Shown: positions 5,255 through 64,000 of the stretch, piece after piece | Position numbering within the stretch: position 1 is the first letter of the stretch | Layout of the letters: each line of letters opens with the position of its first letter | Assembly: GCF_028368995.1 (NCBI RefSeq) | Contig: NZ_JAQNDL010000002.1 | Span: 1,376,001 to 1,440,000 of the forward strand | Reading direction: 5' to 3' | Source of the DNA: Nannocystis bainbridge | Lineage (GTDB): Bacteria; Myxococcota_A; Polyangia; Nannocystales; Nannocystaceae | Length of the DNA stretch: 64,000 nt | Notes under the pieces: generated by a model | Told to the model about the DNA's origin: nothing | Seen by the model: only the letters and a program-made list of their open reading frames with translations | Databases searched by the model: none | Position numbers and translations under genes: made by a program

Positions 5255-8200
5255 CGCAGGAGCTCCTCGTAGTAGCGCTCGACCGAGCCGCGGAAGCCCT
5301 CCGGCGCGCGCTCCTTCATCGCCTCCATCAGCTCGTCGCGGAGCGAGCGGTCGCGCTCGGTCTCGGTCGAGACCTCGTCGGGAGGAGAGGTCGTCTGCGG
5401 CGCGGACGAGCTGTCGCGCAGGCTGTCGAGCGCGCGCTGGAGGCCGCCGAGGGCGCCGCTCTGGCGCTCGAGCGCCGGGCCGCCGCGACGCTCGCCGAGC
5501 GCGCCGCTGCTGCCCTCCATCTCCGAAATGGCGCCGCGCATGGCCTGCTTGCCGGGGTCGGGCAGATGGCGGGCGTTGGGGCTCTCGAGCACCTGCGCGG
5601 CGCGGGCCCGCAGGCCCTGCTGCTTCTGCGAGAGGCCGTCGAAGCGGGCCTGGGCGGCCTCGTCGAGGCCTTCGGTCGGGGTCGGGAGCTGGGCCTCGAG
5701 CAGCTTGCGCAGGGCGTCGCCGCGCTCGCGCAGCGGTCCGAGCTGCCGGCGCTCCTGCGAGTCGGCGCCCGCGCCGGCGACGGCCCGCTCGAGCGCCTGG
5801 GCGGCGGCCCGCGCGGCCTCGGCGGTGGCGAGGGCCTTGGGCTCGCTCGCCTGGGCCTCGGCGGCCACGCGCTGCAGCTGCTCGCGGGCGTCCTCGAGCG
5901 CGCGCCGGCCATCGCGGCCGAGCCGGGCGTCGTTGATCGCGTCGAGCGCCTTGCCGAGCGCGGCGGCCTGCCTGGCGGCCTGCTCGGCGGTCGTCTGTTC
6001 GAGGGCGCGGGTCTGGGCCTGCTTGCGCCACTGCTCGTGGAGCGACCGACTCTCGCCGCGCAGGCCAGTCTCCTCGTCCTGGATCCGGCTGATCTCTCGC
6101 ATCAGCTCCATGCGCGCCCGCTCCTCGGGCGTCATCGCGGCCCCTGGCCCCGAGGCCATGCGGTCCTGGACGCCGGAGCGCAGCTGGCGGAGCTCGTCGA
6201 GCACGCCGCGGGCGCGGTCGAGGGCGCCGTCGACGTCGCCCTGGCGCAGCTGCTCGCCGACGTCCTGCTGGCGCAGCTGCTCGGCCATCGACTCGAAGGC
6301 GTCGGTGTTGAGGAATTCCTGGCCGAGCTCCTTGTCGAGCTTGGACCGCGCCTCCGACAGTCGGCGCAGGTCCTCGCGGATCCGCTGCTGCAGCTGATCG
6401 ACTTCGCCGCGCACGCTCTCGTCGCCGGCCTTGAGCCGCTCGAGCAGGTCGACGAGCTTCTGCTGCGAGGTCTGCAAGCGGGCCACCAGCTGCTCGATCT
6501 GCGCCAGCAGCTGGTTGTCGACCAGGTCGTCGAGGCGAATGACCTCGTCCTCGAGCTGGGTCAGCTGCAGGCGATTGGTGGCAGACAGCTTGCCGAGGAT
6601 CCGCGCGGCGGCGTCGGGACGCTCGGCCTCGGCGCCCGGGGGGAGCTCCTCGTGCTCGGCCGACTCGCGCCGATGCAGCTCCATCAGCCGCTTGTGCACG
6701 CCGACCAGGACGGCGACGTCGCGCGGCGGCGCGAGAGTGTCGACGGACAGCGCGTCGATCGCGGTGCTGATCGCGGCCAGCAAACCACCCGAGGCGGCCA
6801 GGAGCTCGCGCATGCCGGCGACGCGACGCGCGGGATCGCCGTCGTCGACGGGCGCGGCCTGATCGTCGGCGCGGATCAGACCTGGCTCTTCGGTCAGCAT
6901 GCGGCGCGCCAGGAGATCGACGGCGGTGTCGCGCAGGGCGGCCAGGTGGGCGAGGTTCTCGGCGTGCTCGGTCTCCTGATCGCGGATCGTCAGGGTCATC
7001 TTCGCCGAGCGAGCGACCTTGCCGGGCGGATCGGCGAGCGGCACGAGGCCGAGACCGGGGTCGTTGTCGCGGACCTCGATCCAGTAGGTGAGTCGCCCGC
7101 GATCCTCGACCGGCAGCGAGGACAGGTCCCAGGCGTAGCGGTGCTGCCAGGTGCGGGCGCGGGCCGGCGGAGCGCCGGCATCGAGGCGCACGGGCTGTTT
7201 GTCGCCGCCCTCGAACACGAGCACCGCGCTGGCGATGCCGAAGTCGTCGCGGGCCTTGAAGCGCAGCTCGACGCTGTCGAGCTCGCTCGGGGCGCTCTGC
7301 GAGCGGGGCAGGGGCAAGAGCTCGATCTCCGGCGGCTCGTCGGCCTCGAGCTCGAGCGGAGCCGGGGCGGACCGGGCCGGCCCGTCGCCGTCCTCGGGCG
7401 TGACGACGATGTGCCAGCTGCCGGCGCCGCGCACGACGAAGCGGCCGCGCCACTTGCCGTCTGTCTCTCGGGACAGGTCGATGCGCTCGGGCGCGGGCGG
7501 CTCGGACAGCGGCCCCTGGTCGTAGCTGAGGATTACGTGCACGGCGCTGGCGGGCCGCCGCGTCTCGAGCTCGACCTCGGTCTCGGTGCCGGCGAGGGCC
7601 CGCACGGCGCCGCTGGGGTTGATGAGCTGACGCGGCACCCGGCCGCTGTACTCGGGGTAGCGCAGGGTGAGGCTGAGGGCGGACCAGACCGGCGCGGGCG
7701 GGGCCGGCGGGCGCCCGTCCTCGGCGGCTCGGATCAGCTCGAGCCCGCGCGCGAACTCGGGGTAACCCGCGAGCACGGCCGCGAGCAGGGCCAGCAGCGC
7801 GGTGGTGAGCGCAGGGACGCGGAGGTTGGCGGGCGGCGCCGCGAGGTCCGGCCGGGCTTCGCTGAGCGACCACTCGACCTGCCGCACGTAGGCCGTGGCG
7901 AGGTCCTGAGACCCGAGGTGACCGCCCGGCCCGGCGAGCAGGAGTTCGGTGGCCCCGAGGATCTCGCGGCGCAGCGAGCTGTCGGAGCGCAGAAAAGGTG
8001 ACGCCTCGCGGGGTCGGCGCGTGAGCGCCCCGCGGAATTGGGCTATGGTAAGCGCCGTCCGATGGGGAGTCCCAGTCAGTGCGAGGATCCGACGCCACGC
8101 GCGTCCGAACAGGGCCAGCAGCGTGACGACGGCGCCGGCGAGCCAGCCGGCCGCGGCGAGATCGCCACGCAAGGTCCAGCCCGCGAGCCCGGCCGCGACC

Positions 8201-8319
8201 ACGGCCAGAGCCAGCAAGAGGGCGACGCAGTGGAGCGCCGCCGCCGCGAGCTCCCGCCGTCGCACGACCCGGCGAACGGCTGCCAGAAACTCGAGCAGAG
8301 GCGGGGGACGGACGTTCAT
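5251..8319 (-). CDS. DUF4175-like large membrane-anchored coiled-coil protein
   Basis: N-terminal TM helices, Ig-like region with ARDDFGI and EVRDND motifs, long Q/E/R-rich coiled coil, C-terminal P..FR..VERYYEELL. Confidence 0.8.
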   Translation of the reverse strand: MNVRPPPLLEFLAAVRRVVRRRELAAAALHCVALLLALAVVAAGLAGWTLRGDLAAAGWLAGAVVTLLALFGRAWRRILALTGTPHRTALTIAQFRGALTRRPREASPFLRSDSSLRREILGATELLLAGPGGHLGSQDLATAYVRQVEWSLSEARPDLAAPPANLRVPALTTALLALLAAVLAGYPEFARGLELIRAAEDGRPPAPPAPVWSALSLTLRYPEYSGRVPRQLINPSGAVRALAGTETEVELETRRPASAVHVILSYDQGPLSEPPAPERIDLSRETDGKWRGRFVVRGAGSWHIVVTPEDGDGPARSAPAPLELEADEPPEIELLPLPRSQSAPSELDSVELRFKARDDFGIASAVLVFEGGDKQPVRLDAGAPPARARTWQHRYAWDLSSLPVEDRGRLTYWIEVRDNDPGLGLVPLADPPGKVARSAKMTLTIRDQETEHAENLAHLAALRDTAVDLLARRMLTEEPGLIRADDQAAPVDDGDPARRVAGMRELLAASGGLLAAISTAIDALSVDTLAPPRDVAVLVGVHKRLMELHRRESAEHEELPPGAEAERPDAAARILGKLSATNRLQLTQLEDEVIRLDDLVDNQLLAQIEQLVARLQTSQQKLVDLLERLKAGDESVRGEVDQLQQRIREDLRRLSEARSKLDKELGQEFLNTDAFESMAEQLRQQDVGEQLRQGDVDGALDRARGVLDELRQLRSGVQDRMASGPGAAMTPEERARMELMREISRIQDEETGLRGESRSLHEQWRKQAQTRALEQTTAEQAARQAAALGKALDAINDARLGRDGRRALEDAREQLQRVAAEAQASEPKALATAEAARAAAQALERAVAGAGADSQERRQLGPLRERGDALRKLLEAQLPTPTEGLDEAAQARFDGLSQKQQGLRARAAQVLESPNARHLPDPGKQAMRGAISEMEGSSGALGERRGGPALERQSGALGGLQRALDSLRDSSSAPQTTSPPDEVSTETERDRSLRDELMEAMKERAPEGFRGSVERYYEELLR

Positions 8320-9134: not shown

Positions 9135-9775
9135 CCGAGCCGCATTTCGACCCGCAGCAACTCAACGCCTACCTCGACGGCGAGCTTTCAGCGCCGGAGC
9201 GCGCCGATGTCGAGCGGCTGCTCTCGGCCAACCCGCAGGCCAGCGCCTACCTCGCCGGGCTGCGCGCGCTCCAGGGGGCCGTGGTCGCCGGATTCGAGGC
9301 CGAGGCCGCCAAGGTGCCCGAGGCGCGGTTCGAACAGATCTGGGACGAGATCGAGCGCACCCTCGACCGGGATCTTCGTTTGCAGAAGGCGCCGGAGCCG
9401 CCGCCCTCGCTGTGGGCGCGACTGCGCGGCGCGTTGCGCCCGGTGTTCGTGCCGGTGGCGTCGGTCGCGGCGGTGGCCGCGGTGGTGGTGGTGTTGTGGA
9501 GCGGGCGCGGCGCCGTCGAGGCTCCGGCGGACACGGCGCCGATGGTCGCGTCGAAGCCGGTCGCCGAGCAACCTGTTCTTGCGGACAGCTCGAAGCCGGC
9601 GCCCGAGGAGAGCGCCGTCGTGTTGCCCGAGCCGAACGGCGGACCGGCGCACATTCAGCGGATCGATTGGGGCGTCAAGTCGGGACGCATCAGCGAGATC
9701 GAGGGCAAGCGCAACACGACCACGGTGATCTGGATCTCCGACGACGACCCTAGCAGCAGTGAGCGTTCCTTATGA
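9131..9775 (+). CDS. Membrane-anchored anti-sigma factor
   Basis: [21 protein letters not shown] anti-sigma domain, single TM, translational coupling (ATGA) to the ECF sigma gene. Confidence 0.85.
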
Positions 9776-10420: not shown

Positions 10421-12817
10421 ATGACCACCCCTGAGCCCACGAAGAGCCCGAGGCCCCGCTGGCGCCGCGTCGCCCTGATCGGCGGCTCGCTCGGCGTGTT
10501 GCTCCTCGGCGGGCTCGCGGTCGCGGTCGCCACGTTCCCGCGATGGGGCGACGAGTGGGTGCAGGAGCAGGCGCACGCACGCCTGCAGAGGATCGCCGGG
10601 GTCCCGGTCACGATCGCCAGGCTCGACCTCGTCGATTTCGACAGCGTGGTCGTCGAGGGCGTGGAGCTGAAGTTCGGGCCCGAGGCGTCGCTAGTGATCG
10701 ACCGCATCGAAGTCGGCCTCGAGCGCGACAAGCTGTGGTCCGGGCAGATCGTCGTCGACCGCGTGAAGGCCTTCGGCGGGCGCCTCACGGGCGACGGCGG
10801 CACGCTCCGCGAGTACGCCCGGGACCTGCGCGCGCGCCTGTCGCAGCGCCGCGAGGACGGCGAGGGTCGGGTCAAGCTGGTGCCGCCGAAGGCCAGCCTG
10901 GAGCGGCTGCAGATCGATCTGCAGGACGAGTTCGGCGGCCGCTCGCTGACGCTGCGCGGGGTGGCGGCGATCGAGGCGCGGCTGGCCGAGCGGACAGCTT
11001 CGCTGGAGCTCGCCGGGGTCGAGGCCGCGGTCGACGAGCGGACGCTGCGAGCGGTCGCGCTGACGACCAGGCTCGATCTGTCGCAAGGGACAGCCGGTGC
11101 GTTCCCGCTGACCTTGACGGTCGATCGCGCGGCCACGGCGATCACCCCGCAGATCGCGGTGGCGGAGATCCGCGGCACTGTGACGCTGGCCGACGCGTCG
11201 GTCAGCCGGGTGGCGCTCGACCTCGCGGGCGGCTTCTCCGACGAGGTGACGGGGGACGAGGAGCACGACGCCGCGGCCCCGCTGTGGGCGCTCGAGGGCG
11301 ACGTGGCCCGCGATCTCTCCGACGGCACCATCAATCTCGACATGGAGGCGTTCAAGCTCGGGCGCGTCCCCGACGTGCTCGCGCGCCTGCCCGTGATCGA
11401 GTCGGAGTCGGCGACGGTCGGCGGCGATCTCAAGGTGGCGTTCGCCGAGGGCAAGGCCAACGTCGTCGGCGACCTCGAGATCGCGGGGCTCAACGTCGAC
11501 CACCCGTTGCTCGCGCGGCAGCCGGTCCGTGGCCTGGGGTTCTCGCTCGGCCTCAAGGCCGACGTGGACCCGCGTGAGCGCGTGGTGAAGATCGAGCAGG
11601 CGACGCTGCAGCGCGGTCCGGTGAAGCTGACGCTGGCCGGCGAGTTCGTGCACGCCGACGATCCGGCCGCGCGCCACTACCGGGCCGATTTGACGATGCC
11701 GAAGGTCCGCTGCCAGGAGTTCCTCGGCGCGATCCCGGCCGAGCTCATCCCGAGTCTGCAGGGCTTCGAGCTCAAGGGTGACTTCGAGTTCGAGATCAAC
11801 GCCGATGTCGACTTCCGCGATCTCGAGGCGCTGGTGCTGACGGCCAAGCTCAAGCCGGAGACGTGCAAGCCGGTCAAGGTCCCGCCGCTGGTGTCGGCGA
11901 CGCGGCTCAACGGGCCGCTGGTGCACCGCGTGGCGATGCGCGACGGCACCGAGCGCTCGGTCGACGTCAGTGAGGGCTCGACCGACTACACGCCGCTCGA
12001 CCAGATCTCGCCGTACGTGCTGGCGGCGGTGACGACGACCGAAGACGGCGGGTTCTGGAGGCACAAGGGCTTCATCACCTCGCAGTTCCGGGCCGCGCTG
12101 CGCAGCAACCTCGAGGCCGGGCGGGTCCGCCTCGGGGCGTCGACGATCACCATGCAGATGGTCAAGAACGTGCTGCTCAGCCACGAGCGCACGCTCTCGC
12201 GCAAGATGCAGGAGGTGTTCCTGACCTGGTACGTCGAGCAATCGCTGACGAAGAACCGGATCATGGAGCTCTACCTCAACGTGATCGAGTTCGGGCCCGG
12301 GGTGTACGGCATCACCCGCGCGGCCTCGCACTACTTCGCCAAGGCGCCGCTCGATCTGACGCCGCCCGAGGCGGCCTACCTGGCGTTGATGCTCCCGAGC
12401 CCGGTGCGTCGCCACGTCCACTACTGCGAGGGCGCCCCTTCGCCGGCGTTTCAGGCCAAGCTCAAGCGGCTGCTGGCGATCATGCACGGGCGCGGGCGCC
12501 TCGACCCCGAGACGTTCGAGCAGTGGAAGGACGAGGGGGTGACGTTCGACGCGACCGAGCTGACGAGCAAGCGCGAGTGCATGGCCGAGGTCGACCGCCT
12601 GCTGGCGGCGTCGGCACAGCAGCGCTCGCTGACGGGGTTGCTCGACGACGGTCAGGACATCGTCGACCTGTCGCTCGACGCCGAGCCGCTGGCCGATGCG
12701 ACCGGCGGCAAGCCGAAGCCGCGCGGCCCGCGGGCGGGCTTCGAGGAGGCCACGCTCGAGGTCATCGGCGGCCTGGACGAGGGCGAGCCCGCGCGCCCGG
12801 TGAGACGACAGCCATGA
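10421..12817 (+). CDS. Peptidoglycan transglycosylase (GT51, monofunctional) with a long N-terminal beta-rich extension
   Basis: GT51 motifs EDGGFWRHKG, GASTITMQMVKN, RKMQE, KNRIMELYLN. No transpeptidase SxxK/KTG seen. N-terminal TM. Confidence 0.9.
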   Translation: MTTPEPTKSPRPRWRRVALIGGSLGVLLLGGLAVAVATFPRWGDEWVQEQAHARLQRIAGVPVTIARLDLVDFDSVVVEGVELKFGPEASLVIDRIEVGLERDKLWSGQIVVDRVKAFGGRLTGDGGTLREYARDLRARLSQRREDGEGRVKLVPPKASLERLQIDLQDEFGGRSLTLRGVAAIEARLAERTASLELAGVEAAVDERTLRAVALTTRLDLSQGTAGAFPLTLTVDRAATAITPQIAVAEIRGTVTLADASVSRVALDLAGGFSDEVTGDEEHDAAAPLWALEGDVARDLSDGTINLDMEAFKLGRVPDVLARLPVIESESATVGGDLKVAFAEGKANVVGDLEIAGLNVDHPLLARQPVRGLGFSLGLKADVDPRERVVKIEQATLQRGPVKLTLAGEFVHADDPAARHYRADLTMPKVRCQEFLGAIPAELIPSLQGFELKGDFEFEINADVDFRDLEALVLTAKLKPETCKPVKVPPLVSATRLNGPLVHRVAMRDGTERSVDVSEGSTDYTPLDQISPYVLAAVTTTEDGGFWRHKGFITSQFRAALRSNLEAGRVRLGASTITMQMVKNVLLSHERTLSRKMQEVFLTWYVEQSLTKNRIMELYLNVIEFGPGVYGITRAASHYFAKAPLDLTPPEAAYLALMLPSPVRRHVHYCEGAPSPAFQAKLKRLLAIMHGRGRLDPETFEQWKDEGVTFDATELTSKRECMAEVDRLLAASAQQRSLTGLLDDGQDIVDLSLDAEPLADATGGKPKPRGPRAGFEEATLEVIGGLDEGEPARPVRRQP

Positions 12818-14295
12818 TCCGTCGCGCTCTCGGTCTCGCTGTCTTTGTGGGCATGTCCCTTGGGACATCTCGTGCGTCGGCCCAGGAAGTGCTGATCGAG
12901 GCCGACGCCAGCCCGCGTCCGCCCGAGTACCAGGTGCGCAAGGTCCACGGCGACATCCGCTTCGGCGCGGGCTTCGGGTTCGTCGCCGAGGACCCGATCT
13001 TCAGCGCGGAGCCGTCGTTCGGCCTCGATCTCCGCGACATCGCGCCGGTGCAGCTCCGGCTCGGTGCGCCGGTCCGCCTCCGCATGTACGACCGCGACCC
13101 GGAGCAGGGGCCGGTGGTTCGCAACACCGAGTGGGACGAGGCGGGCGACTACCTGGCGATCCTGCAGCAGCTGCAGTACAGCGGCGACTATGTGTTCGGC
13201 CGCGAGGGCCGGGTGCTCGTCGATCTGCGCGTCGGCGACCTCCAGCGCGTGCAGGTCGGCCACGGCAGCATGGTCCGCGGCTACGCCAACAGCCTCGACC
13301 TCGATCGGCGTCGCAGCGGGCTCGACCTCGACGCGCGTATCGAGGGTCTCCTGCTCGGGCACGCCGCGGGCGCCGAGATCGCGTTCGTGGCCGGTGACCT
13401 CGCGGCGCAGCAGATCTTCGGCACACGCATCGCGGCCGACTGGGCTGGCGCGGCGCTCGGCTTCTCGGTGTTCGGCGATCCGTACGCTCCGCGCACTCTG
13501 GTGCCGTGGGACGGCCGCGGCGACGCCCTGACGGTCGACAACAAGAATCGCTTGCAGACCGACGGATCGCTCGGGGCGATGGCGATGGGCCTCGACCTCA
13601 GCTACCGCTGGACCGATCGCTGGCGGTTCCTCGTCACGCCGTACATCGATCTCAACCTCATGCCCGGGCTCGGCAAGGGCATGCACCTCGGGATCGACAC
13701 CGAGTTCATCCTCGGTCGTCGCCGGCGGGCGCGGCTCGGCGTGGTCGCCGAGCTGACCGTCGGCGATCGCGGCTACGATCCGACCTACTTCGACGTCTTC
13801 TATACGATGCAGCGCATGCAGGCGCAGTTCGTCGCGTACCCCGGCGACCTGCCGCCGGACTTCGCGACCACCGCGCTGCCGAAGTACAGCTTCGTGCTTC
13901 AGAACGACCTGAGCGGCGTCGGCGGGTACGGCGGGATCCGCTTCGCGCACGACGACGGCGCCTTCTTCGAGACCGGTTATCGCTACCGGCCGGGCCCGCT
14001 CGGGCACACCTGGGAGACCCGGCTCGGCATCGATCTCGAGGTGGTGCAGCTGTCGCTGCTGCACGCGCACCGGGGCAAGCTCGGGTTCGACATCATCGAT
14101 CCCGCGGGCACTCTGGCGCGCTTCGACCTCAACGTCCCGGTGCTGCGCTGGCTCGACGTGTTCGCCCAGGCGGGCTTCCAGTATCAGGTCCGTCGCGCGC
14201 CCGGAGAGTCGGCCGCGGCGCGTCAGCCTGCCGGCGGGTTCGTCGGCGGCGGCGGGCTCATGCTGCTCGGGGTCGCGGGCAAGTTCGGCTGGTGA
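12814..14295 (+). CDS. Probable outer-membrane beta-barrel protein
   Basis: ATGA overlap with the upstream gene, signal peptide (ASA-Q), alternating hydrophobic strands, C-terminal GVAGKFGW. Confidence 0.7.
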   Translation: MIRRALGLAVFVGMSLGTSRASAQEVLIEADASPRPPEYQVRKVHGDIRFGAGFGFVAEDPIFSAEPSFGLDLRDIAPVQLRLGAPVRLRMYDRDPEQGPVVRNTEWDEAGDYLAILQQLQYSGDYVFGREGRVLVDLRVGDLQRVQVGHGSMVRGYANSLDLDRRRSGLDLDARIEGLLLGHAAGAEIAFVAGDLAAQQIFGTRIAADWAGAALGFSVFGDPYAPRTLVPWDGRGDALTVDNKNRLQTDGSLGAMAMGLDLSYRWTDRWRFLVTPYIDLNLMPGLGKGMHLGIDTEFILGRRRRARLGVVAELTVGDRGYDPTYFDVFYTMQRMQAQFVAYPGDLPPDFATTALPKYSFVLQNDLSGVGGYGGIRFAHDDGAFFETGYRYRPGPLGHTWETRLGIDLEVVQLSLLHAHRGKLGFDIIDPAGTLARFDLNVPVLRWLDVFAQAGFQYQVRRAPGESAAARQPAGGFVGGGGLMLLGVAGKFGW

Positions 14296-17608: not shown

Positions 17609-18162
17609 AGGACAAGAACATCGCGTCGATCCTGGCCTTCCCGCTGTTCGGCGGCTGGGGAGCGCACAAGTTCTACCTCGGGCAAGTCGGCGCGGGCATC
17701 GTCTACCTGGCGTTCGCGTGGACGCTGATCCCGGCGATCATCGCGTTCTTCGAGTTCATCATCCTGGCGCTGATGGACCGCGACGAGTTCAACCGGCGCT
17801 ACAACGGCAACAACGCGCTGACCGGCGCGCCCGTGGTCGTCAACATGCTGCCGCCGGGGCCGGCCTACTACCCGCCGAGCCACTCGCACTACCCGCACGG
17901 CTACCCGCAGCCCGGACATCCGCAGGCGGGCTACCCGTACCCGGCGAACATCTACCCGGGCGTGTATCCGCCCGGGACCCAGCCGCCGGGGCAGATGTCC
18001 GCAGGGACAGGTCCTTCGGGACAGGAGACGCCGGCGCGCAGCGCCGCGGCCGTCGACGAGTTGATCGCCCGCATCGAGAAGCTCAACGAGCTGCGCGTCG
18101 CGGGGCTGCTCACCGACGAGGAGTTCGCGCAGCAGAAGGCCCGCGTGCTGCAGCACATGTGA
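17605..18162 (+). CDS. TM2 (NINE) domain protein with C-terminal SHOCT
   Basis: KNIASILAFPLFGGWGAHKFYLGQ (TM2); IEKLNELRVAGLLTDEEFAQQKARVL (SHOCT); Pro/Tyr/Gly linker. Confidence 0.9.
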   Translation: MKDKNIASILAFPLFGGWGAHKFYLGQVGAGIVYLAFAWTLIPAIIAFFEFIILALMDRDEFNRRYNGNNALTGAPVVVNMLPPGPAYYPPSHSHYPHGYPQPGHPQAGYPYPANIYPGVYPPGTQPPGQMSAGTGPSGQETPARSAAAVDELIARIEKLNELRVAGLLTDEEFAQQKARVLQHM

Positions 18163-21885: not shown

Positions 21886-21987
21886 GCGAGCTGTCCCGAG
21901 GGACAGCCGGCTGATGACGCCGACAAAAGCGAACGGCTCGTCGGAGGACCGACGAGCCGTGCGCGCAGAGCCGGTCGCTCGCGGCGT

Positions 21988-23172
<1,185 letters not shown>

Positions 23173-33556: not shown

Positions 33557-33678
33557 ACCTGGCCCCTGGCATGCCCTGCGGCGGCGGCGGGTGCAAGCGG
33601 AAAAAACGCCGGTGGTGCGGACGCTGGGCGGCTGCGCGGGGTGGACCGGGGGCCTCAGTGCACGATTCTGTCTCATTA

Positions 33679-35540: not shown

Positions 35541-35554
35541 GCGGGCCAGAGATG

Positions 35555-35774: not shown

Positions 35775-35792
35775 GCCGGCCGCGGGGCGGGC

Positions 35793-48486: not shown

Positions 48487-48564
48487 CGGATGGTCGTTCG
48501 GACATGCCCGAGAGGGCATGTTCGAAGGGGCATGTCCGCACGGACATGCCCGCAAGGACACGCC
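48487..48564. repeat. 14-bp-period palindrome array (5-6 units) filling a convergent intergenic gap
   Basis: Cores at (48487), 48501, 48515, 48529, 48543, 48557. Confidence 0.88.
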
Positions 48565-48566
48565 GA

Positions 48567-53222: not shown

Positions 53223-54604
53223 GGCGCGCGCACGGCCGGGAACTTCACGGGCGAGTCGAGGTCCAAGCGCCCGTGACCGATCGCGCCCGTCCGCTGGTGG
53301 TCGAGGTCGTGGCCCGACAGGGCCCGACGATCGTGGATGTGACAGTGGTGGGAGGCCGGGCCGGCGCGTATCGCATCGGCGAGGGCCCGCGGGCGCAGGC
53401 GACGGTGGCAGTGCCGGCCGCCGAGGCCGACGGGTGCTTCGCGCTGGTGGTGCTGCGCGGGGGCTCGCCGCTGCTGCGGGTGCCGGCAGGGGCGACGGGC
53501 GAGCTGCAGGCGGGCGCGGCGGAGGGGCGGCCGCTGGTCGCGGGCGAGGCGATCGAGCTGGTCGATGGGACATGTGCGATCGTGCATGTCGGGCCGCTGA
53601 CGTTCGAGCTGCGCGCGGGGCCGGCCGAGCCGGCGGTGAAGTGGTCGCCGGTGATCGAGTGGCCGCTGTGGCTGGCGCAGGCGGCCTCGCTGGCGCTGTT
53701 CCTGACGCTGGCGCTGCTGATCCGGATCTGGGGGCCGACGGCCGAGGCGCCGCGCTGGGACGATCCGGAGCTGCAGGAGCGGCTGATCCGCTACACGGCC
53801 GCATTGCCGCCGCCGCCGCCGCCACCGGACGTGATCGGCGAGGTCGGGCGTGCGCGGCCGCGGGAGCCGATCGCGCGCGCGCCGCGACCGACGCCGAGCG
53901 AGCCGGCGACCAGTGAGTCACCCGACGCGCCGGCGGTGACCGGGTCTCGAGGACAGGACCCCGAGGACAGGTCCCGAGAGGCAGGTTTTCTCGGGCTGGC
54001 GGAGTTCGACCGGATCTTGCGCGAGTACACGGCGTCGCTCGATGTCTCGATCCGCAACTACGCGACGTCGCCGGAGACCGACTCGGCGTGGGCGGCGGCG
54101 ACGCGCACGGTGCCGCGGGCGATCGCGGGGCTCGGGCTGGGCGAGACGCTGCGCGGCGGCGGGGGCGTGGCCGAGGCGGTGATCGACCTCGACCTCGGGG
54201 AGCTGTTCGCGGGCCTCGAGGCCCGGCGCAAGCGCGGGCCGCCGGGGACGGGGCGCAAGGAGGCGGCGTTCACGAAGGCGGCGGTGCCGGAGGTCCGCGA
54301 GACGCCGCGTCAGAGCGTCGAGTGGACGGCGGCGGTCGGCCAGGATCTGATCCGCGGGGTGATCCGGCGCCACACGCCCGAGGTCCGTAAATGCTTCCGC
54401 GAGGGGCCGGCGACCGGCAAGGTCGAGGTGGCGTTCACGATCGGCAGCGGCGGCAAGGTCCGCGCGGCGGCGATCGAGGCGAGCACGATCGACCACGCCG
54501 GGGTGCAGGACTGCATCACCACGGCGGTGAAGTCGTGGACGTTCCCGACCATCGTGGCAGCGGCCGGGGACGTCGCAGTGCGCTATCCGTTTTCGGTCGG
54601 CTGA
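53219..54604 (+). CDS. GltG/AgmX-like single-TM protein with C-terminal AgmX/PglI domain
   Basis: ATGA coupling; degenerate FHA-like N-terminus, TM, Pro-rich linker, IRGVIRRHTPEVRKCF...CI...WTFP...VRYPF. Confidence 0.75.
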   Translation: MRRAHGRELHGRVEVQAPVTDRARPLVVEVVARQGPTIVDVTVVGGRAGAYRIGEGPRAQATVAVPAAEADGCFALVVLRGGSPLLRVPAGATGELQAGAAEGRPLVAGEAIELVDGTCAIVHVGPLTFELRAGPAEPAVKWSPVIEWPLWLAQAASLALFLTLALLIRIWGPTAEAPRWDDPELQERLIRYTAALPPPPPPPDVIGEVGRARPREPIARAPRPTPSEPATSESPDAPAVTGSRGQDPEDRSREAGFLGLAEFDRILREYTASLDVSIRNYATSPETDSAWAAATRTVPRAIAGLGLGETLRGGGGVAEAVIDLDLGELFAGLEARRKRGPPGTGRKEAAFTKAAVPEVRETPRQSVEWTAAVGQDLIRGVIRRHTPEVRKCFREGPATGKVEVAFTIGSGGKVRAAAIEASTIDHAGVQDCITTAVKSWTFPTIVAAAGDVAVRYPFSVG

Positions 54605-54878: not shown

Positions 54879-56564
54879 TCAACCGGGTCCGAGGACGATC
54901 GGCGGCTCGATCAGGCCGGGGAGCGTGTCGGGGTGCGGATCGTCGGGGACGAGCTTCGGCTCGCCCGGATCGGCGCCGACCATGGTTCGCCAGCGCCGCG
55001 GTACCCGCCGCAGCGCGATCGGATAGAGGACGAGGGCGCCGTCGCGGCGGACGTGCAGGCGGACGAAATGTTTGAAGTCCTGGATCCGCAGCGACGAGAA
55101 GGCCTCGTTGCCGTGGCGGCGGAACAGGTTGACGGCGAGCAGCAGGTAGACACCGAAGATCAGCGAGCTGAACAGCCAGCCGAGGCCGAGCAGGATGACG
55201 AGGCCGATCCCGATCGCGGCGGCGCTGTCCCACGCGAGGCCGCAGGCGCCGGCGATCTGTCCTGCGAGCCAGGTGAGGGCGAGGACGGCGAAGGCGTGGG
55301 CGGCGGCGTGGACGAGGCCGGCGAGCCACCGCCGGTGGGCCCGGCGAGCGTCGGCGAACCACACCAGGGCGCCGGCGGTGGCGAGCAGCCACAGCGCGGC
55401 CCACGGTGAGCGCAAGAGGGCGGACGACATGTCCGAAAGGGCAGGTAGGAATTCGGCCGCCGGCGGGCCGTCGAGCGCGGCTCGCAGGTTCCAGCCGATG
55501 AGGAGGTAGAGGAGGCCGGTGACGGCGCCGAAGCTCGGGTTCTGCAGCGGGAAGGCGAGGTTGCGCCAGGCCAGGCGGCGCGAGGTCGCGGGATCGGGGA
55601 AGGCGCAGCGCAGGCCGTGGCCGCCGGCGAGCGGGTCGTCGTGAAGGACGTGGGTGGGGTGGAGGAAGGCGCCGCCGCCTCCGGCGGTGATCTTCTGGAC
55701 GCGGCCGTCGGCGGTGGCGTGGCGGCGGTAATGGTGGAGGTCGCCGGACAGGAACACACGGATCCGCGGGCCGAACAGCCGCTCGAGGAAGGCGAGGTTG
55801 CCGTCGCGGACGCGGCGCAGCCGGGCCTTGCGATCGCGCTGCTCGTGGGCGCGGACCCAGTGCGGCTCGGCGGTGCAGAGGATGATGCGGGCGCGCGGGC
55901 CCATGCGTTCGGCGAGGGCGCGGAAGTAATCGACCTGGTGGGCGTCGATGTCGGAGCCGAGCTGGACGTCGACGCCGACGAGCCACCAGTCGTGCGGCAG
56001 GCGGGCGGCGAAGTAGCTGGCGCGCTGATGGATCTGCCAGCCGCAGAACCACCGCTTGTCGAGGAACAGCTTGGTGAAGGTGGCGAGGCTGTCGTACCAG
56101 TCGTGGTTGCCGGGCACGGCGAACAGCACGGGGTGCGGCGGGGCGCTGCGTTCGAAGGCGCACTCGTAGGGGAGGACCAGCCGCTGCTCGTAGGCGGTGC
56201 GGCTGGGGGTCGGGTAGACCTGATCGCCGCCGAACACGAGGACGCTGGCGCGCGGCAATTCGTAGGCGCGGCCGTGCGGGCCGTGGACGCGGAGGACCGG
56301 CCGCGTGGCCCAGTAGGCGACCGCGTAGGTCGGGTTCCAGCCGTCGCCCGAGTCGGCCACGAAGTCGAGCACGAGCTGGTCGCGGTGCGAGAAGTCAGTC
56401 AGCTCGTCCGGCGGCACCGGTCGCAGGAGCCGCCGATCGAGCTGGTCGCCGAGGGCCGTCGAGACCGCGACGCGCGCGGCCGTCTGCAGCAGCTGGACCG
56501 GCGCGTACCAGCGCACCATGTCCGCGGGGGCGTGGAGGTCGCGGGCGGTCGGGACGTCGGTCAT
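54879..56564 (-). CDS. Calcineurin-like metallophosphoesterase with C-terminal TM helices
   Basis: ADSGDG, GGDQVYP, PGNHDWYD, SGDLHHY, GGGGAFLHPTH; GAGAGG RBS before ATG 56564. Confidence 0.88.
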   Translation of the reverse strand: MTDVPTARDLHAPADMVRWYAPVQLLQTAARVAVSTALGDQLDRRLLRPVPPDELTDFSHRDQLVLDFVADSGDGWNPTYAVAYWATRPVLRVHGPHGRAYELPRASVLVFGGDQVYPTPSRTAYEQRLVLPYECAFERSAPPHPVLFAVPGNHDWYDSLATFTKLFLDKRWFCGWQIHQRASYFAARLPHDWWLVGVDVQLGSDIDAHQVDYFRALAERMGPRARIILCTAEPHWVRAHEQRDRKARLRRVRDGNLAFLERLFGPRIRVFLSGDLHHYRRHATADGRVQKITAGGGGAFLHPTHVLHDDPLAGGHGLRCAFPDPATSRRLAWRNLAFPLQNPSFGAVTGLLYLLIGWNLRAALDGPPAAEFLPALSDMSSALLRSPWAALWLLATAGALVWFADARRAHRRWLAGLVHAAAHAFAVLALTWLAGQIAGACGLAWDSAAAIGIGLVILLGLGWLFSSLIFGVYLLLAVNLFRRHGNEAFSSLRIQDFKHFVRLHVRRDGALVLYPIALRRVPRRWRTMVGADPGEPKLVPDDPHPDTLPGLIEPPIVLGPG

Positions 56565-56626: not shown

Positions 56627-57475
56627 TCAGGACAGTCGCGCCAGCAGCCGGCGCAACAGCGTGGGGCTGACGAACACGAGGTAGAGGCTGATCATCTGTA
56701 GGCTGAAATAAATCAGCTGGTACATGGTGACGGCGACCACGAGGTGGAGGCCGATGCCGAGCAGGAAGCCGAGCGGTCGCAGACGTCGTGGCAGGAGCAG
56801 CAGCGGCGCGAGCAGCTCGAAGCCGAGAGCGGCGTGTTGCAGAAGCGTCCACACGCCGGCGGGGAGGACGCGCAGCAGCCACGCGGCCGCCTCGGTGCAG
56901 TAGACGCCCTGGACCTGGACCCACAGCACGTCGTCGTAGGCGAGCCAGTCGCCCCGCAGCGCCTTGCACAGGCCGGAGGCGACGTAGTGGATCAGGAGCG
57001 AGACCTGGAGGACGCGGATCGGCCAGGCGGCGATCCTGGCCTCGGGGCCCTGTCCCGAAGGACCTGGCGCGAGGGCCAGGATCAGAAAGCCGAAGATGTA
57101 GAGGCGGTTGATCGTGAAGGCGCTGATCGGGTCGGCCAGCGAGACGTAGAGCAGGCCGGCGATGACGAGCCACGTGGCGGCGCGGCGGGCCCAGCCGAAG
57201 ATGATGGCCAACATGGCGCCGAAGTAGACGGCGAAGAACGGGCCGAGCGTGGCGCGGGTGAGCAGCGGGACGTGCGGCGCGTAGTAAGCGTCGACGGCGG
57301 GCGTGGGGTGGTAGCCGACGGCAGTGAGCCACTCGCCGGCGTGCTGGGCCCAGGCGAAGGTGTAGAAGACCAGGGTGTAGGTGAAGGCCTGGCGGAAAGC
57401 GTCGAGCTGGATCGGGTCGACGGGCTCGTACCAGAACCGCTGCCAGCCCTCGCGCGCGCGGGCGACGAGGCTCAT
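56627..57475 (-). CDS. HTTM-domain membrane protein (SdpB/VKG-carboxylase-like)
   Basis: W.RFW, WPIRVLQV..LIHY..SGL.K..GDW, FELLAPLLL, GIGLHL...M. Confidence 0.8.
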   Translation of the reverse strand: MSLVARAREGWQRFWYEPVDPIQLDAFRQAFTYTLVFYTFAWAQHAGEWLTAVGYHPTPAVDAYYAPHVPLLTRATLGPFFAVYFGAMLAIIFGWARRAATWLVIAGLLYVSLADPISAFTINRLYIFGFLILALAPGPSGQGPEARIAAWPIRVLQVSLLIHYVASGLCKALRGDWLAYDDVLWVQVQGVYCTEAAAWLLRVLPAGVWTLLQHAALGFELLAPLLLLPRRLRPLGFLLGIGLHLVVAVTMYQLIYFSLQMISLYLVFVSPTLLRRLLARLS

Positions 57476-58008: not shown

Positions 58009-58856
58009 GCGCGCCGGAGGCCCTGGCCACCTCGTCTTGCCACGCCGGTCCGCACCTTGTCGAGCCCCGCGTGGCCGCAGCAACCTCGTCGAGCGGCGCT
58101 GGCGGGCCTGGTGCACGCGTCAGCCGAGCCGAGGGCGTGTTACCGTGAGCGATGGACGCGGCCTGCTCGCCCTGGCGCAGCAGCGGTCGGCGAGAGACGG
58201 GTGGCGACGTTGATCGAGTAGCAACGGACCTCGGTGTCGTGGGCGGGGCTGATCGAGCAGCGCGCAGCGAAGTGCTCGAGTCGCTACGCATGAAGGGCGG
58301 CGAGGCGGTCGCGCTGTCGCTTGCGCCGTTCGGGGCACCGGTGTCTCCCGTCGCTCTCCGGAACTGTCCCTGTCAACACGCTCGACGTGCGATTTGCTGG
58401 AGGCAATCCGGGTCGCGCTGCGAAGCTTGCGAGCACGACATGAAAAATCGCGGTCGAACGCCAACTGCGAACGCCTGAGGCTGGTGCGGCCGGGCCGCGC
58501 GCCGGGGTGCTGTTGAACCGCAGTCACGGCTCGCTCGAGCGGGCTGCTGCCGCGATCGGTCGTGGGTCGACATCCTCGCGTTCACTGGCTTTCACGCGTG
58601 GCGCGAGGGGATCACGAACGCCGACGAGCAGGCGCTTTTCGGCTCGCATCTGGAGCGAGTGGTCGGCGAATCGTTGCCTGCGGACGAGTGCAGACAGATG
58701 TCCTTTCGGACATATCGCTGCACGGTGCATGTCCACATGACGACGAATCCACGTCGCGGCTCGCGTGTGGAAACGCGCTAGCCGTGGCGCGCGGGTCTCT
58801 GATAGAAGCGAAGACGACCCCTCAAGGTCCTGACTTTTCTCTCGCGTAAGGATCCG

Positions 58857-63648: not shown

Positions 63649-64000
63649 TGCGAGGTCGCGCGCGAGACCGTAGAGGTTCGCAACGTGGGGTCGCCGCGGC
63701 GCTGGCGGCGTCGCTGGTCTTCGGGGTCGCCCCCGGAACTCAGGGACAGGTCCTTGCGGCCATGTCCTTTGCGACAGGTCCCAGCGAGCAGGCGGCGAAC
63801 CAGCCGTCGGCCGCCGACCTGAGCGCGCAGGCGATCGAGCGCTTCCAGGCCCGCGACTACGACGCGGCGGTGCGCCTGTTCGAGGAGGCGTACGCGATCG
63901 ACCGGGTGCCGAACTACCTGTTCAACATCGGCCGCGTGTACGAGGAGAAGGGCGACATCCGCTCGGCGGTCGACTACTACCAGCGCTTCGTCAAGGAGCC
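63648..64000 (+). CDS. Secreted TPR protein (3' truncated by the window edge)
   Basis: TGATG coupling; signal-like N-terminus, then FQARDYDAAVRLFEEAYAIDRVPNYLFNIGRVYEEKGD...AVDYYQRF. Confidence 0.85.
   Translation, partial: MRGRARDRRGSQRGVAAALAASLVFGVAPGTQGQVLAAMSFATGPSEQAANQPSAADLSAQAIERFQARDYDAAVRLFEEAYAIDRVPNYLFNIGRVYEEKGDIRSAVDYYQRFVKE

What the first reader, a model, noticed from the sequence alone, without database searches (positions are those of the whole stretch)
7458..63780. Doublets/triplets of the motif overprinted on coding sequence throughout the window
Seen: 14-bp-spaced pairs or triplets at 7458/7472, 11075/11089, 12850/12864, 17992/18006/18020, 19232/19246, 30383/30397, 32098/32112/32126, 53938/53952/53966/53980, 55426/55440, 57047/57061 and 63745/63759/63773. 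Intergenic sets occur at 2891/2905, 3338/3352 and 58695/58709. Most coding hits fall in signal peptides, loops or disordered linkers and force rare ACA/GGA/TGT/CCT codons. Inference: a highly iterated chromosomal signal, about one site every 3 kb, comparable in concept to DNA uptake sequences, HIP1 or nucleoid-protein sites. The minimal unit appears to be (C/A)TGTC-N6-GACA(G/T).
Basis: partly seen in the sequence, partly recalled or inferred. Interest (0 to 1): 0.7.

Follow-up and report, generated by a model that had tools for sequence, protein, structure and literature searches.

The report
Hyper-abundant 14-bp palindrome word in Nannocystis
This myxobacterial genome carries thousands of copies of one short palindromic DNA word, alone or in strict head-to-tail rows, mostly just after genes but also written into protein-coding sequence, which points to an unknown factor that reads it.

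Summary

- **Abundance:** TGTC-N6-GACA occurs 21 times in the window (0.55 expected) and 3663 times in the 11-Mb genome. Other spacings give 29-175, apart from k=20 (984), which reflects two adjacent units.
- **Form:** the full word is (C)A-TGTCC-N4-GGACA-T(G). Units abut at exactly 14 bp, giving 5446 arrays of 1-9 units.
- **Not a codon artefact:** in coding sequence, k=6 gives 1353 sites against 15-111 for other spacings. The Thr codon inside the word is ACA in 288 of 311 cases, although ACA is only 2.3% of Thr codons.
- **Conservation:** the arms are conserved at synonymous sites (0.93 against 0.82 in the flanks).
- **Origin:** one site was built in place by four substitutions inside a conserved enzyme motif.
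- **Refinement:** coding sequence is the sparse compartment (0.14 sites/kb). Density is 3.0/kb between convergent genes, 1.2-1.3/kb between tandem genes and 0.5/kb between divergent genes.
- **Not transposed:** the arrays are not copies of one another, and no RAYT transposase was found.
- **Distribution:** the word is confined to Nannocystis and two sister genera.

The best reading is a lineage-specific signal read by an unidentified dimeric DNA-binding factor. It is closest in concept to HIP1, DUS/USS and REP/BIME elements. I found no paper describing it. The scan has noted analogous phased palindrome arrays, with different sequences, in other phyla.

The parts
5063..5188 (.). Intergenic arrays of 6 + 2 units, between two minus-strand genes (3437-5047 and 5251-8319)
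   Evidence: Array chaining. Present in three relatives, with arms kept while centres and lengths change.
7462..7475 (.). Single unit inside the CDS 5251-8319(-), encoding L-S-R-E-T
   Evidence: Arms are identical in G001, G005 and G010; the centre varies.
9574..9587 (.). Single 9/10 unit in CDS 9131-9775(+)
   Evidence: The relatives carry the perfect TGTCC arm.
10983..11092 (.). Two separate single units (10983 and 11079) in the transglycosylase-domain gene 10421-12817(+)
12840..12867 (.). Two-unit array 23 nt after the stop codon of 10421-12817(+)
   Evidence: Conserved in three relatives.
17996..18023 (.). Two-unit array in the linker of a TM2/SHOCT protein (17605-18162+), encoding M-S-A-G-T-G-P-S-G-Q
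19236..19249 (.). Single perfect unit in CDS 18792-19400(-)
21892..21905 (.). Single unit just after the stop codon of 21373-21885(+), in a convergent intergenic region. Relatives hold different motif-bearing sequence at this place.
22095..22108 (.). Single perfect unit overprinted on the conserved 'MTHASVPKDTR' motif of a Cys/Met-metabolism PLP enzyme (21988-23172-)
   Evidence: Pfam PF01053, E=1.8e-156. The orthologue codons of 22 genomes show that the word was built by substitutions only.
30387..30414 (.). Two-unit array at the predicted start of CDS 30386-31090(+), encoding M-S-S-G-T-G-P-Q-G
   Evidence: Only the centre changes (synonymously) among four genomes.
33669..33805 (.). Intergenic arrays of 3 + 2 units, relatively AT-rich, upstream of the M28 peptidase gene
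   Evidence: Unalignable among relatives, which carry their own ACATG-phased arrays here.
35559..35770 (.). Intergenic arrays of 1 + 2 + 9 units in a convergent intergenic region. The relatives have an extra 1.0-1.7 kb of sequence here.
38132..38270 (.). Intergenic arrays of 8 + 1 units between the stop of the Glu/Leu/Phe/Val dehydrogenase-family gene and the M13 peptidase start. The last unit abuts the stop codon and is kept in five genomes.
48491..48560 (.). Five-unit array filling the convergent intergenic region between 46337-48484(+) and 48567-49676(-)
   Evidence: The CATG junctions and arms are kept in three relatives; the centres are free.
50668..50681 (.). Single perfect unit in the VIT/VWA protein gene (49694-52537-), encoding P-V-L-T-D-I
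   Evidence: Identical in all four genomes.
53942..53983 (.). Three weak units (7-8 of 10) in CDS 53273-54604(+)
55430..55443 (.). Single 9/10 unit in CDS 54879-56564(-)
57037..57078 (.). Three-unit array in a variable loop of an HTTM-domain membrane protein (56627-57475-)
58699..58712 (.). Single perfect intergenic unit
63735..63790 (.). Four-unit array between the kinase gene stop (63648) and the next gene, overlapping that gene's predicted start (63762)

Best explanation
**What it is.** The word TGTCC-N4-GGACA (extended form CATGTCC-YNNR-GGACATG) is a lineage-specific genomic signal. I propose it is read on duplex DNA by a still unidentified, abundant, dimeric DNA-binding factor.

**Shown here.**
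- Copies are not transposed. They arise where they sit, by point substitution and by local duplication of the 14-bp unit.
- The two 5-bp arms are then held by purifying selection or an equivalent sequence-specific drive, while the 4-bp centre drifts.
- Copies pile up where DNA is least constrained. The order is convergent 3' intergenic regions (57% carry a unit, 34% an array of at least 3 units), then tandem regions, then divergent regions, then loops, linkers and weakly biased genes within CDS.

**Inferred.**
- The arm centres lie 9 bp apart, which suits a helix-turn-helix-type homodimer.
- Abutting units 14 bp apart (three units = 42 bp = four helical turns) would let dimers coat an array as a helical filament.
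- The role would then be nucleoid- or topology-related, or an insulator at gene ends.
- The reader protein and its function are not identified.
For: **Specific spacing and dyad form.**
- The k=6 spike is 3663 against 29-175. The 10/10 unit occurs 1987 times against 3 for the control.
- Of 23769 GGACA arms, 3974 have a perfect partner at offset 9, against 4-32 at other offsets.

**Centre.** It shows only a Y6/R9 preference and no transcript-strand bias. In 1125 tandem-region sites, CGAG:CTCG is 65:60, CGAA:TTCG is 56:51, and the purine fraction is 0.494.

**Arms conserved, centre free, against G001 over 400 kb at 91.2% identity.**
- At third codon positions in CDS, arms are 242/260 identical, flanks 591/720 (p=1e-5) and the centre 60/74.
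- In intergenic sites, arms are 183/200, flanks 474/648 (p=7e-9) and the centre 48/80.

**Origin in place.** Site 22095 reads TCT GTC CCG AAG GAC ACC. The other 21 of the 22 orthologue regions recovered from 25 loci read mostly TCG GTG CCC AAG GAG AAC-like sequence, with no length change. Only 1 of 68 coding sites lies in an indel against G001.

**No master copy.** The 384 arrays of at least 5 units share essentially only the arms (75-85% identity). The 24 near-identical HSPs longer than 120 bp are few, and the twelve listed all join arrays near contig ends; one contig end checked is a multi-kb repeat.

**Junction.** Two variant arms across one CATG junction are disfavoured (odds ratio 0.46), as expected if each GGACA|TGTCC junction needs one good half-site.

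**Distribution follows constraint.**

**Taxonomic range.** The same word and the same 14-bp phasing occur in a second genus (G071: 51 doublets, 0 in the control) but not in 13 other genera of the family.
Against: - **No reader found.** No candidate reader protein was found or even short-listed. Nothing here shows binding.
- **Symmetric double variants.** These exceed independence in strict contexts: T-A 142, C-G 58, C-A 49, T-G 37, where about 13 C-G are expected. The outer pair A-T 142 / G-C 81 has about 8 G-C expected. In one search the odds ratio is 3.5 for the pair that would face each other in a hairpin. Independent half-site reading does not predict this.
- **Strand asymmetry.** In tandem intergenic regions, U.G-type single variants outnumber C.A-type ones on the transcript strand at pair 3 (110:67, p=0.0015) and weakly at pair 4 (52:35).
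- **Folding.** Arrays fold into 10-13-bp stems as RNA, with z-scores of -7.6 and -5.6.
- **Strict 14-bp phasing.** This could be a by-product of unit duplication rather than of cooperative binding. Identical neighbouring centres number 128, against 70 +/- 7 expected.
- **Size of the CDS excess.** It is about 34-fold over in-frame spacings and includes two amino-acid changes at site 22095. That may fit a drive better than site-by-site selection for a nucleoid protein.
Confidence: 0.4

Rival explanations
1. DUS/USS-like molecular drive. The word is preferred by a DNA uptake, recombination or repair step acting on self DNA. Variants that improve the word are therefore fixed more often than chance, everywhere that coding allows. 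No function at the individual site is needed.
For: - The excess is very large, including in CDS (1353 against 15-111).
- The word was created by point substitutions, two of them non-synonymous, inside a conserved enzyme.
- The frame bias favours the frame using preferred GTC/GAC codons (677 / 570 / 106).
- Sites prefer weakly biased genes (0.267 down to 0.058 per kb) and Pro/Ser-rich segments.
- 37% of sites lie in ORFs. The table of Findlay & Redfield (PMC2817400; abstract and outline read) gives 34.5-65% for uptake sequences. That abstract also reports a preference for poorly conserved positions and preferred-codon frames.
- 100-kb bins of lower GC (0.686-0.711) hold 4-10 sites, against contig means of about 27-41.
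- The distribution is at genus or family level.
Against: - Uptake sequences are asymmetric words without fixed-spacing dyads or head-to-tail phased arrays. This statement is recalled, not tested.
- Competence with sequence preference is not known to me for Nannocystis, and no search addressed it.
- Vsr-type short-patch repair is not co-distributed: 0 hits in G000, 1 of 7 other Nannocystis genomes, 0 of 7 in g4.
- Fourteen genes without a G001 counterpart were not depleted (4 sites in 13.7 kb; small sample).
Confidence: 0.22
2. REP-like hairpin element acting as single-stranded nucleic acid. Units and arrays would form stem-loops in the 3' ends of transcripts, acting as terminators, stabilisers or bidirectional insulators, or would form stem-loops in single-stranded DNA. 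A hairpin-binding factor would read them.
For: - Position: density is 3.04/kb in convergent regions, 1.2-1.3/kb in tandem regions and 0.49/kb in divergent regions. In tandem regions it falls from the stop codon onward: 119, 101, 81 ... 9 over ten bins.
- 34% of convergent intergenic regions carry arrays of at least 3 units.
- Arrays fold with 10-13-bp stems, z = -7.6 and -5.6.
- Symmetric double variants are enriched 2-10 fold.
- There is a U.G over C.A asymmetry at pair 3.
Against: - Loop sequences show no strand preference.
- There is no wobble asymmetry at pair 5 (139:149).
- Orthologue comparison gives 2 compensatory doubles among 720 pairs, the same as a mis-paired control (low power).
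- No T-run follows the stem (logo). Terminator-like sites are not above shuffles (7 against 4.6 +/- 2.1).
- A generic hairpin does not need one fixed arm sequence at thousands of independently formed loci.
- 1353 sites lie inside CDS, spread evenly along genes.
- There is no Rfam match.
Confidence: 0.2
3. Mobile miniature repeat: a REP/REPIN element moved by a RAYT transposase, or a MITE. Copies would be insertions spread by a transposase.
For: - The copy number is high, arrays cluster, and they sit at 3' extragenic positions.
- Intergenic regions bearing arrays turn over fast and cannot be aligned between species whose genes are 91% identical.
Against: - There is no Y1/RAYT transposase (PF01797) in G000, while the control search rings in 6 of 14 known genomes.
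- Arrays share no sequence beyond the arms.
- Coding sites are substitutions, not insertions.
- The HTTM loop array differs from its orthologues by only 2-6 residues, not by a 14-residue block.
Confidence: 0.04
4. By-product of base, codon or amino-acid composition, or an assembly artefact.
For: In the commonest frame, the GTC and GAC inside the word are preferred codons.
Against: - In-frame control spacings k=0, 3, 9 and 12 give 51, 43, 26 and 37 sites in CDS, against 1353 at k=6.
- Rare ACA is used in 288 of 311 cases, and rare third-position T in 455 of 527.
- The reversed control word occurs 3 times, against 1987.
- The same excess is seen in the 7 other genomes of the genus searched.
Confidence: 0.01

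Closest known systems
HIP1 (GCGATCGC), the highly iterated palindrome of cyanobacteria
   Same: A clade-specific short palindrome, over-represented by one to two orders of magnitude. It is found inside and between ORFs and is conserved at orthologous sites, so it is maintained rather than merely replenished. No peptide or RNA role is evident, and its function is unresolved (abstract of Xu et al. 2018, PMC5861425; listing and abstract starts of PMC4390886 and of a 2024 bioRxiv preprint).
   Different: The word here is an interrupted 14-bp dyad with a free centre. It abuts itself in strictly phased arrays. It is about 20 times denser 3' of genes than in CDS. No cognate methyltransferase was looked for beyond showing that CATG is not avoided (O/E 1.24). 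It occurs in a different phylum.
DNA uptake sequences (DUS of Neisseriaceae, USS of Pasteurellaceae)
   Same: Thousands of copies occur. About a third to two thirds lie in ORFs, at weakly conserved positions and in frames that allow preferred codons. They arise by point mutation, and their range is family-level (PMC2817400, abstract and outline).
   Different: Uptake sequences are asymmetric single words. I know of no phased tandem arrays of them (recalled). Uptake bias was not testable here.
REP / BIME elements with RAYT transposases (Proteobacteria)
   Same: Palindromic, genus-specific, hundreds to thousands of copies, clustered, and mostly 3' of genes and between convergent genes.
   Different: The unit is 14 bp rather than roughly 20-40 nt. 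No RAYT is present. Copies are not insertions of a master sequence. 37% of copies lie in CDS.
Tandem operator arrays read by cooperative dimers (met boxes of MetJ, heptad arrays of the omega repressor)
   Same: Short dyad units are repeated head to tail without spacers. This is a working analogy for how an array could be read (recalled, not tested).
   Different: Those arrays occur at a handful of promoters or centromere-like sites, not at about 5400 loci, and not inside genes.

Membership tests
REP/BIME-RAYT | A cognate Y1 (IS200/IS605-like, RAYT) transposase in the genome | tested here: not met
   PF01797 gives 0 matches in G000 (90.5% complete, 5 contigs). The same search rings in 6 of 14 control genomes.
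REP/BIME-RAYT | Copies are extragenic insertions related by descent from a master sequence | tested here: not met
   1353 of 3663 exact sites lie in CDS. Arrays share only the arms. Site 22095 was made by substitutions. Only 1 of 68 coding sites lies in an indel.
REP/BIME-RAYT | Preference for 3' ends and convergent intergenic regions, and clustering | tested here: met
   Density is 3.04/kb in convergent regions, 1.2-1.3/kb in tandem regions and 0.49/kb in divergent regions. Arrays of up to 9 units occur.
HIP1-class iterated palindromes | Palindrome over-represented 15-300 fold | tested here: met
   k=6 gives 3663 against 29-175. The 10/10 unit occurs 1987 times against 3 for the control.
HIP1-class iterated palindromes | Sites conserved within and between ORFs beyond the background | tested here: met
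   Arms against flanks: 242/260 against 591/720 at third codon positions, and 183/200 against 474/648 in intergenic sites.
HIP1-class iterated palindromes | The sequence GCGATCGC with its orphan methyltransferases, in cyanobacteria | tested here: not met
   The word is different and the phylum is Myxococcota. Methyltransferases were not examined.
DNA uptake sequences | Preferential uptake of fragments bearing the word by competent cells | not testable with these tools
   This needs an uptake or transformation assay.
DNA uptake sequences | Accumulation in ORFs at weakly constrained positions and in frames with preferred codons | tested here: met
   Frame counts are 677 / 570 / 106. Density falls with codon score, and the flanks are rich in Pro and Ser.
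DNA uptake sequences | Depletion in recently acquired DNA | tested here: inconclusive
   Six lower-GC 100-kb bins hold 4-10 sites, against contig means of 27-41. However, 14 genes without a G001 counterpart hold 4 sites in 13.7 kb.
Intrinsic (Rho-independent) terminators | GC-rich hairpin followed by a T-run | tested here: not met
   No T-run appears in the logo after position +14. The consensus scan finds 7 sites against 4.6 +/- 2.1 in shuffles.
Any curated RNA family (Rfam 15) | Match at gathering score | tested here: not met
   Only two tRNAs match in the window.

The most novel reading that the evidence does not exclude
Nannocystis and its sister genera would possess an undescribed sequence-specific chromosome-marking system. 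An abundant dimeric protein would recognise TGTCC-N4-GGACA and polymerise along 14-bp-phased arrays that occupy a third of all convergent gene junctions. There it would act as a topological or transcriptional insulator, or as a mark of self DNA used in recombination or uptake. The pressure would be strong enough to rewrite synonymous sites, and even amino acids, in about a quarter of all genes.
Probability: 0.3. Interest if true: 0.85.

Novelty: new variant of a known kind. Interest (0 to 1): 0.62.

Why it matters
Hyper-abundant genome words such as HIP1, DUS/USS and REP are few, and the function of some is still debated. This one adds a case in a different phylum, Myxococcota.

It combines traits that the known classes hold separately:
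- It is created in place and conserved at synonymous sites inside genes, as with HIP1 and USS.
- It forms strictly phased arrays concentrated at gene 3' ends, as with REP/BIME elements.

About 9800 units make up 1.25% of the genome, and 23% of genes carry one. The word is therefore a measurable force on protein and codon evolution in this genus.

It also gives direct handles for experiments:
- a defined 14-bp bait to fish for the reader protein;
- a genus-level presence/absence pattern for phylogenetic profiling.

Practically, the word is a marker of native against acquired DNA. It is also a likely cause of intergenic instability in genomes that are mined for natural-product gene clusters.

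Tried and rejected
- **Composition artefact:** rejected.
- **REP-RAYT:** no Y1 transposase found.
- **MITE or master copy:** an all-against-all BLAST of the 384 long arrays shows only arm-level similarity.
- **Transposon ends:** the identical arrays listed, all near contig ends, are ordinary intergenic arrays. They sit inside a multi-kb repeat that forms a perfect 6.6-kb inverted repeat at a contig end, with no rRNA.
- **Vsr-type short-patch repair as the drive:** not co-distributed with the word.
- **Restriction-type avoidance:** CATG is not avoided (O/E 1.24), and ACATGT is the most over-represented 6-mer palindrome (1.6) simply because of the word.
- **Known RNA family:** none matches.
- **Covariation in loosely defined arrays:** this showed no association, but I discount it. 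The threshold of at least 7 of 10 matches biases against double variants. The conditional tests replace it.
- **Expression evidence:** the search for public RNA runs gave no result. Whether arrays are transcribed, or mark transcript ends, is open.
- **Failed scripts:** A centre-comparison script returned nothing and was replaced.
- **Literature:** searches for the word or for Nannocystis repeats found nothing relevant. Supplementary files could not be seen, and subscription journals are not covered.
- **Recalled operator motifs:** I considered PadR-type (ATGT-N8-ACAT) and lux-box-type (CTGT-N8-ACAG) operators. They show that the geometry is ordinary for helix-turn-helix dimers, but they were not tested and do not identify a reader.

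Full report
**1.

- Exact TGTC-N6-GACA occurs 21 times in the 64-kb window. One hundred dinucleotide-preserving shuffles give 0.55 (sd 0.76, maximum 3).
The 'triplets' and 'quadruplets' are two or three abutting units.
- The window lies in an 11.05-Mb, 71.5% GC genome of 5 contigs.
The exception is k=20 (984).
- The reciprocal words GACA-N0-TGTC (2237) and GACA-N14-TGTC (1305) are also high. All three signals arise from units abutting at exactly 14 bp.
- The 10/10 unit occurs 1987 times, against 3 for the reversed control word. Units matching at least 9/10 occur 6245 times, against 164 for the control.
- Tandem Repeats Finder independently reports period-14 or period-28 arrays at six places in the window.

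**2. Anatomy**

- The logo is (A/G)C(A/C)-TGTCC-N4-GGACA-(T/G)G(T). The junction between abutting units is GGACA|TGTCC, or GGACA|GGTCC and its complement.
- The centre shows only a pyrimidine preference at position 6 and a purine preference at position 9.
- Chaining seeds of at least 9/10 with neighbours of at least 7/10 at +/-14 bp gives 5446 arrays. Their sizes in units are 1: 3264, 2: 1140, 3: 495, 4: 163, 5: 209, 6: 130, 7: 33, 8: 10 and 9: 2. The control word gives 164 singles and no arrays.
- Together these are 9835 units, or 1.25% of the genome.
- The unit is inherently dyadic. Of 23769 GGACA arms, 3974 have a perfect TGTCC partner at offset 9, against 4-32 at offsets 7, 8 and 10-12.

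**3. Where it sits**

I had no annotation, so I trained a codon-usage gene caller on long ORFs. It called 8132 CDS covering 85% of the genome. The calls behave as real genes in alignments to a relative: identity by codon position is 0.941, 0.958 and 0.854.

Density of exact sites:

| Compartment | Sites per kb |
|---|---|
| Convergent intergenic regions | 3.04 |
| Tandem intergenic regions | 1.16-1.30 |
| Divergent intergenic regions | 0.49 |
| CDS | 0.144 (1353 of 3663 sites) |

Intergenic regions carrying units:

| Region type (n) | At least one unit | Array of at least 3 units |
|---|---|---|
| Convergent (1334) | 56.9% | 33.9% |
| Tandem (3565) | 26.7% | 8.7% |
| Divergent (1416) | 15.3% | 1.5% |

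- In tandem regions of 200-500 bp, unit density falls steadily from the upstream stop codon to the next start. Over ten equal bins the counts are 119, 101, 81, 71, 59, 42, 43, 29, 29 and 9.
- In convergent regions the density is flat. In divergent regions the units sit centrally.
- In the window, 13 of 30 arrays lie in called CDS and 17 are intergenic or at gene edges. The longest arrays are all intergenic.
- So 'overprinted on coding sequence' is true but describes the minority compartment.

**4. Coding copies are not a composition effect**

- Within CDS alone, k=6 gives 1353 sites, against 15-111 for k=0-12. The in-frame controls k=0, 3, 9 and 12 give 51, 43, 26 and 37.
- In the frame .TG TCC ... 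.GG ACN, the last base is A in 288 of 311 cases. ACA is only 2.3% of Thr codons.
- In the frame ..N GTC C.. ..G GAC A, N is T in 455 of 527 cases. Third-position T is only 3.7% genome-wide.
- All three frames are used, but unequally (677, 570 and 106). The fewest sites are in the frame that needs TGT and GGA.
- Sites are spread evenly along genes.
- Density falls from 0.267/kb in the lowest decile of codon score to 0.058/kb in the top quartile.
- The ten residues on either side are enriched in Pro (1.43x), Ser (1.41x) and Ala (1.16x). They are depleted in Ile, Met, Phe, Tyr and Asn.
- 23.4% of called genes carry a unit.

**5. Conservation**

- Three same-genus genomes (G001, G005, G010) are collinear with the window at about 90% identity.
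- In coding units the arms are kept in all of them, while the centre changes, often synonymously.
- I extended the comparison to 400 kb aligned to G001 (91.2% identity). It covers 68 coding and 20 intergenic exact sites.
- At third codon positions, arms are identical in 242 of 260 cases, the centre in 60 of 74 and the flanks in 591 of 720. Arms against flanks gives Fisher p=1e-5.
- In intergenic sites, arms are identical in 183 of 200 cases, the centre in 48 of 80 and the flanks in 474 of 648 (p=7e-9).
- Of the coding sites, 47 of 68 keep the exact core in G001 and only 1 of 68 lies in an indel. Of the intergenic sites, 6 of 20 keep the core and 7 of 20 lie in indels.
- Array-bearing intergenic regions are otherwise unalignable between genomes whose flanking genes are 91-97% identical.
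- Site density is 2.66/kb in unaligned intergenic DNA and 0.65/kb in aligned intergenic DNA.

**6. Origin: made in place, not inserted**

- Site 22095 lies in a Cys/Met-metabolism PLP enzyme (PF01053, E=1.8e-156), inside its conserved 'HPAIMTHASVPK..R' motif.
- I found this region in 22 of 25 orthologous loci from the family. All have the same length.
- Most read TCG GTG CCC AAG GAG AAC or similar. A distant Nannocystis genome reads TCG GTC CCG AAG GAG ACG.
- Only G000 reads TCT GTC CCG AAG GAC ACC. It therefore gained the word by two synonymous and two non-synonymous changes. Its three close relatives carry the same word there.
- A three-unit array in an HTTM-domain membrane protein lies in a loop of variable length. 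That loop is 2-6 residues longer than in seven homologues, not longer by a 14-residue block.
- Long arrays are not copies of a master element. Among 384 arrays of at least 5 units, nearly all non-self BLAST matches are 75-85% identical over 40-80 bp, which is arm-level similarity.
- The 24 HSPs that are at least 95% identical over 120 bp or more are few. The twelve listed all join arrays near contig ends, and the one contig end I examined is a multi-kb repeat.
- Local duplication of units does occur. Neighbouring units share an identical centre 128 times out of 4389, against 70 +/- 7 expected. Some arrays show 3-8 near-identical units.
- No Y1/RAYT transposase is present. The control search rings in 6 of 14 known genomes.

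**7. Taxonomic range**

- A 33-nt three-unit pattern scanned over one genome for each of 185,579 species hit only four stretches. All four are in records titled Nannocystis.
- A strict two-unit pattern was found in 8 of 10 other genomes of the same genus and in 0 of 30 genomes of other genera.
- Counts of TGTCC-N4-GGACA per genome in the family:

| Genus group | Sites per genome | Control word |
|---|---|---|
| Own genus (8 of 8 genomes) | 333-2090 | 2-6 |
| g4 (7 of 7) | 67-696 | not tallied here |
| g2 (5 of 5) | 87-169 | not tallied here |
| g32 | 5-20 | not tallied here |
| The other 13 genera | 0-11 | near these counts |

- One g4 genome (G071) also shows 51 phased doublets, against 0 for the control. 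One g2 genome (G052) shows none.

**8. Duplex DNA or hairpin?**

For a duplex-DNA reading:
- The centre has no transcript-strand bias in 1125 tandem-region sites. CGAG:CTCG is 65:60, CGAA:TTCG is 56:51, and the purine fraction is 0.494.
- Two variant arms across one CATG junction are disfavoured (odds ratio 0.46).
- Orthologue comparison gives 64 single changes and 2 compensatory double changes among 720 pairs, the same as a mis-paired control. The power of this test is low.
- No T-run follows the unit, and the terminator scan is not above chance.

For a hairpin reading:
- Because GGACA|TGTCC is itself palindromic, arrays fold as RNA into 10-13-bp stems, with z-scores of -7.6 and -5.6.
- With all other positions held at consensus, symmetric double variants exceed independence. 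T-A / C-G / C-A / T-G counts are 142 / 58 / 49 / 37, where about 13 C-G are expected. The outer pair gives 142 / 81 / 35 / 31, where about 8 are expected.
- The odds ratio is 3.5 for the two positions that would face each other across the middle unit, and 1.4 within a unit.
- U.G-type single variants outnumber C.A-type ones on the transcript strand at pair 3 (110:67, p=0.0015) and weakly at pair 4 (52:35). They do not at pair 5 (139:149).

An alternating A-B-A-B pattern of arm variants would also produce the associations seen. I regard this question as open, leaning toward duplex recognition.

**9. What follows**

- Identical arms were formed independently at thousands of loci. Some of these loci are inside conserved enzymes, and the arms are held at synonymous sites.
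- That requires something sequence-specific acting in trans: a protein (or conceivably an RNA) that reads the word, or a sequence-specific drive.
- The geometry has arms about one helical turn apart with a free centre. That is ordinary for helix-turn-helix-type dimers (general knowledge, not tested).
- A period of 14 bp puts successive dimers about 120 degrees apart, and three units make four helical turns (inference).
- I commit to a duplex-DNA recognition word for an unidentified abundant dimeric factor (0.40).
- The rivals are a DUS/USS-like drive (0.22), a REP-like hairpin function (0.20), a transposed mini-element (0.04) and a composition or assembly artefact (0.01). The remainder is for readings not listed.
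- Vsr-type repair is not co-distributed with the word. CATG is not avoided.

**10. Comparison and novelty**

- The closest concepts are HIP1, DNA uptake sequences and REP/BIME elements.
- For HIP1 I read the abstract of PMC5861425. It reports 15-300-fold excess, conservation within and between ORFs, and an unresolved function.
- For uptake sequences I read the abstract and outline of PMC2817400. They report 34.5-65% of copies in ORFs, at weakly conserved positions and in preferred-codon frames.
- The word fails REP membership on the transposase and on insertional origin. It differs from HIP1 and DUS/USS in its interrupted dyad, its phased arrays and its 20-fold preference for gene 3' ends.
- Seven full-text searches, plus one in-paper word search, found no description of it. 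Supplements and subscription journals were not visible.
- Earlier notes of this scan describe phased palindrome arrays of other sequences in other phyla. They are unchecked leads, and none concerns this word. A look-up around this window found no look-alike stretch.
- I rate the word a new variant of a known kind.

**11. Limits**

- Gene calls are my own, and start sites are approximate.
- Conservation statistics rest on 88 sites and one relative.
- No expression data could be obtained.
- No reader protein was sought systematically.

Noticed in passing
window 35541-35779, with the matching stretches of G001, G005 and G010: Three relatives carry an extra 1.0-1.7 kb here, with open coding-like sequence. 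In G005 it is flanked on both sides by motif arrays. G000 lacks it and has a merged run of at least 12 units instead. This suggests that arrays can mediate deletion or gain of gene cassettes.
   Followed up: partly
G001 stretch matching window 21883-21982: G001 has a tandem repeat of roughly 66 bp, in about 6 copies, each copy embedding one motif-like unit (CTGCCC-GGAG-AGACAGG). G000 has a single unit at this place.
   Followed up: no
L130 (G000:C5:706000-720618); also the ends of C1 and C2: The contig end is a perfect inverted repeat with 6.6-kb arms, 100% complementary and 124 nt apart. Identical arrays from it also occur near the ends of C1 and C2, and no rRNA is present. It is either a fold-back assembly artefact or a real large palindrome.
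   Followed up: partly
G000 100-kb bins: C1 bins 5, 11, 12, 18; C2 bin 18; C5 bin 4: These bins hold only 4-10 exact sites, against contig means of 27-41 per 100 kb. They also have lower GC (0.686-0.711) and a lower called coding fraction. They are candidates for recently acquired islands.
   Followed up: partly
window 31190-31262 and 31306-31378: Two tRNA genes on the + strand. They are the only Rfam matches in the window.
   Followed up: no
window 61358-61630: A 72-bp tandem repeat of 3.8 copies (73% matches) lies inside the called gene 60545-61693(+). It probably encodes a 24-residue protein repeat.
   Followed up: no
window 33669-33710; G005 stretch matching 35541-35779: Some arrays are strikingly AT-rich for a 71.5% GC genome. 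They keep little more than ACATG every 14 bp, and the G005 example has about 17 such units. The CATG junction is therefore the most resistant part of the repeat.
   Followed up: no
G000:C3:1816595 and G000:C3:1085844: One array has a 42-bp (three-unit) higher-order period repeated three times. Another has eight near-identical units (TG[T/C]CCCTGAGGTCA). Both are examples of recent tandem expansion.
   Followed up: no
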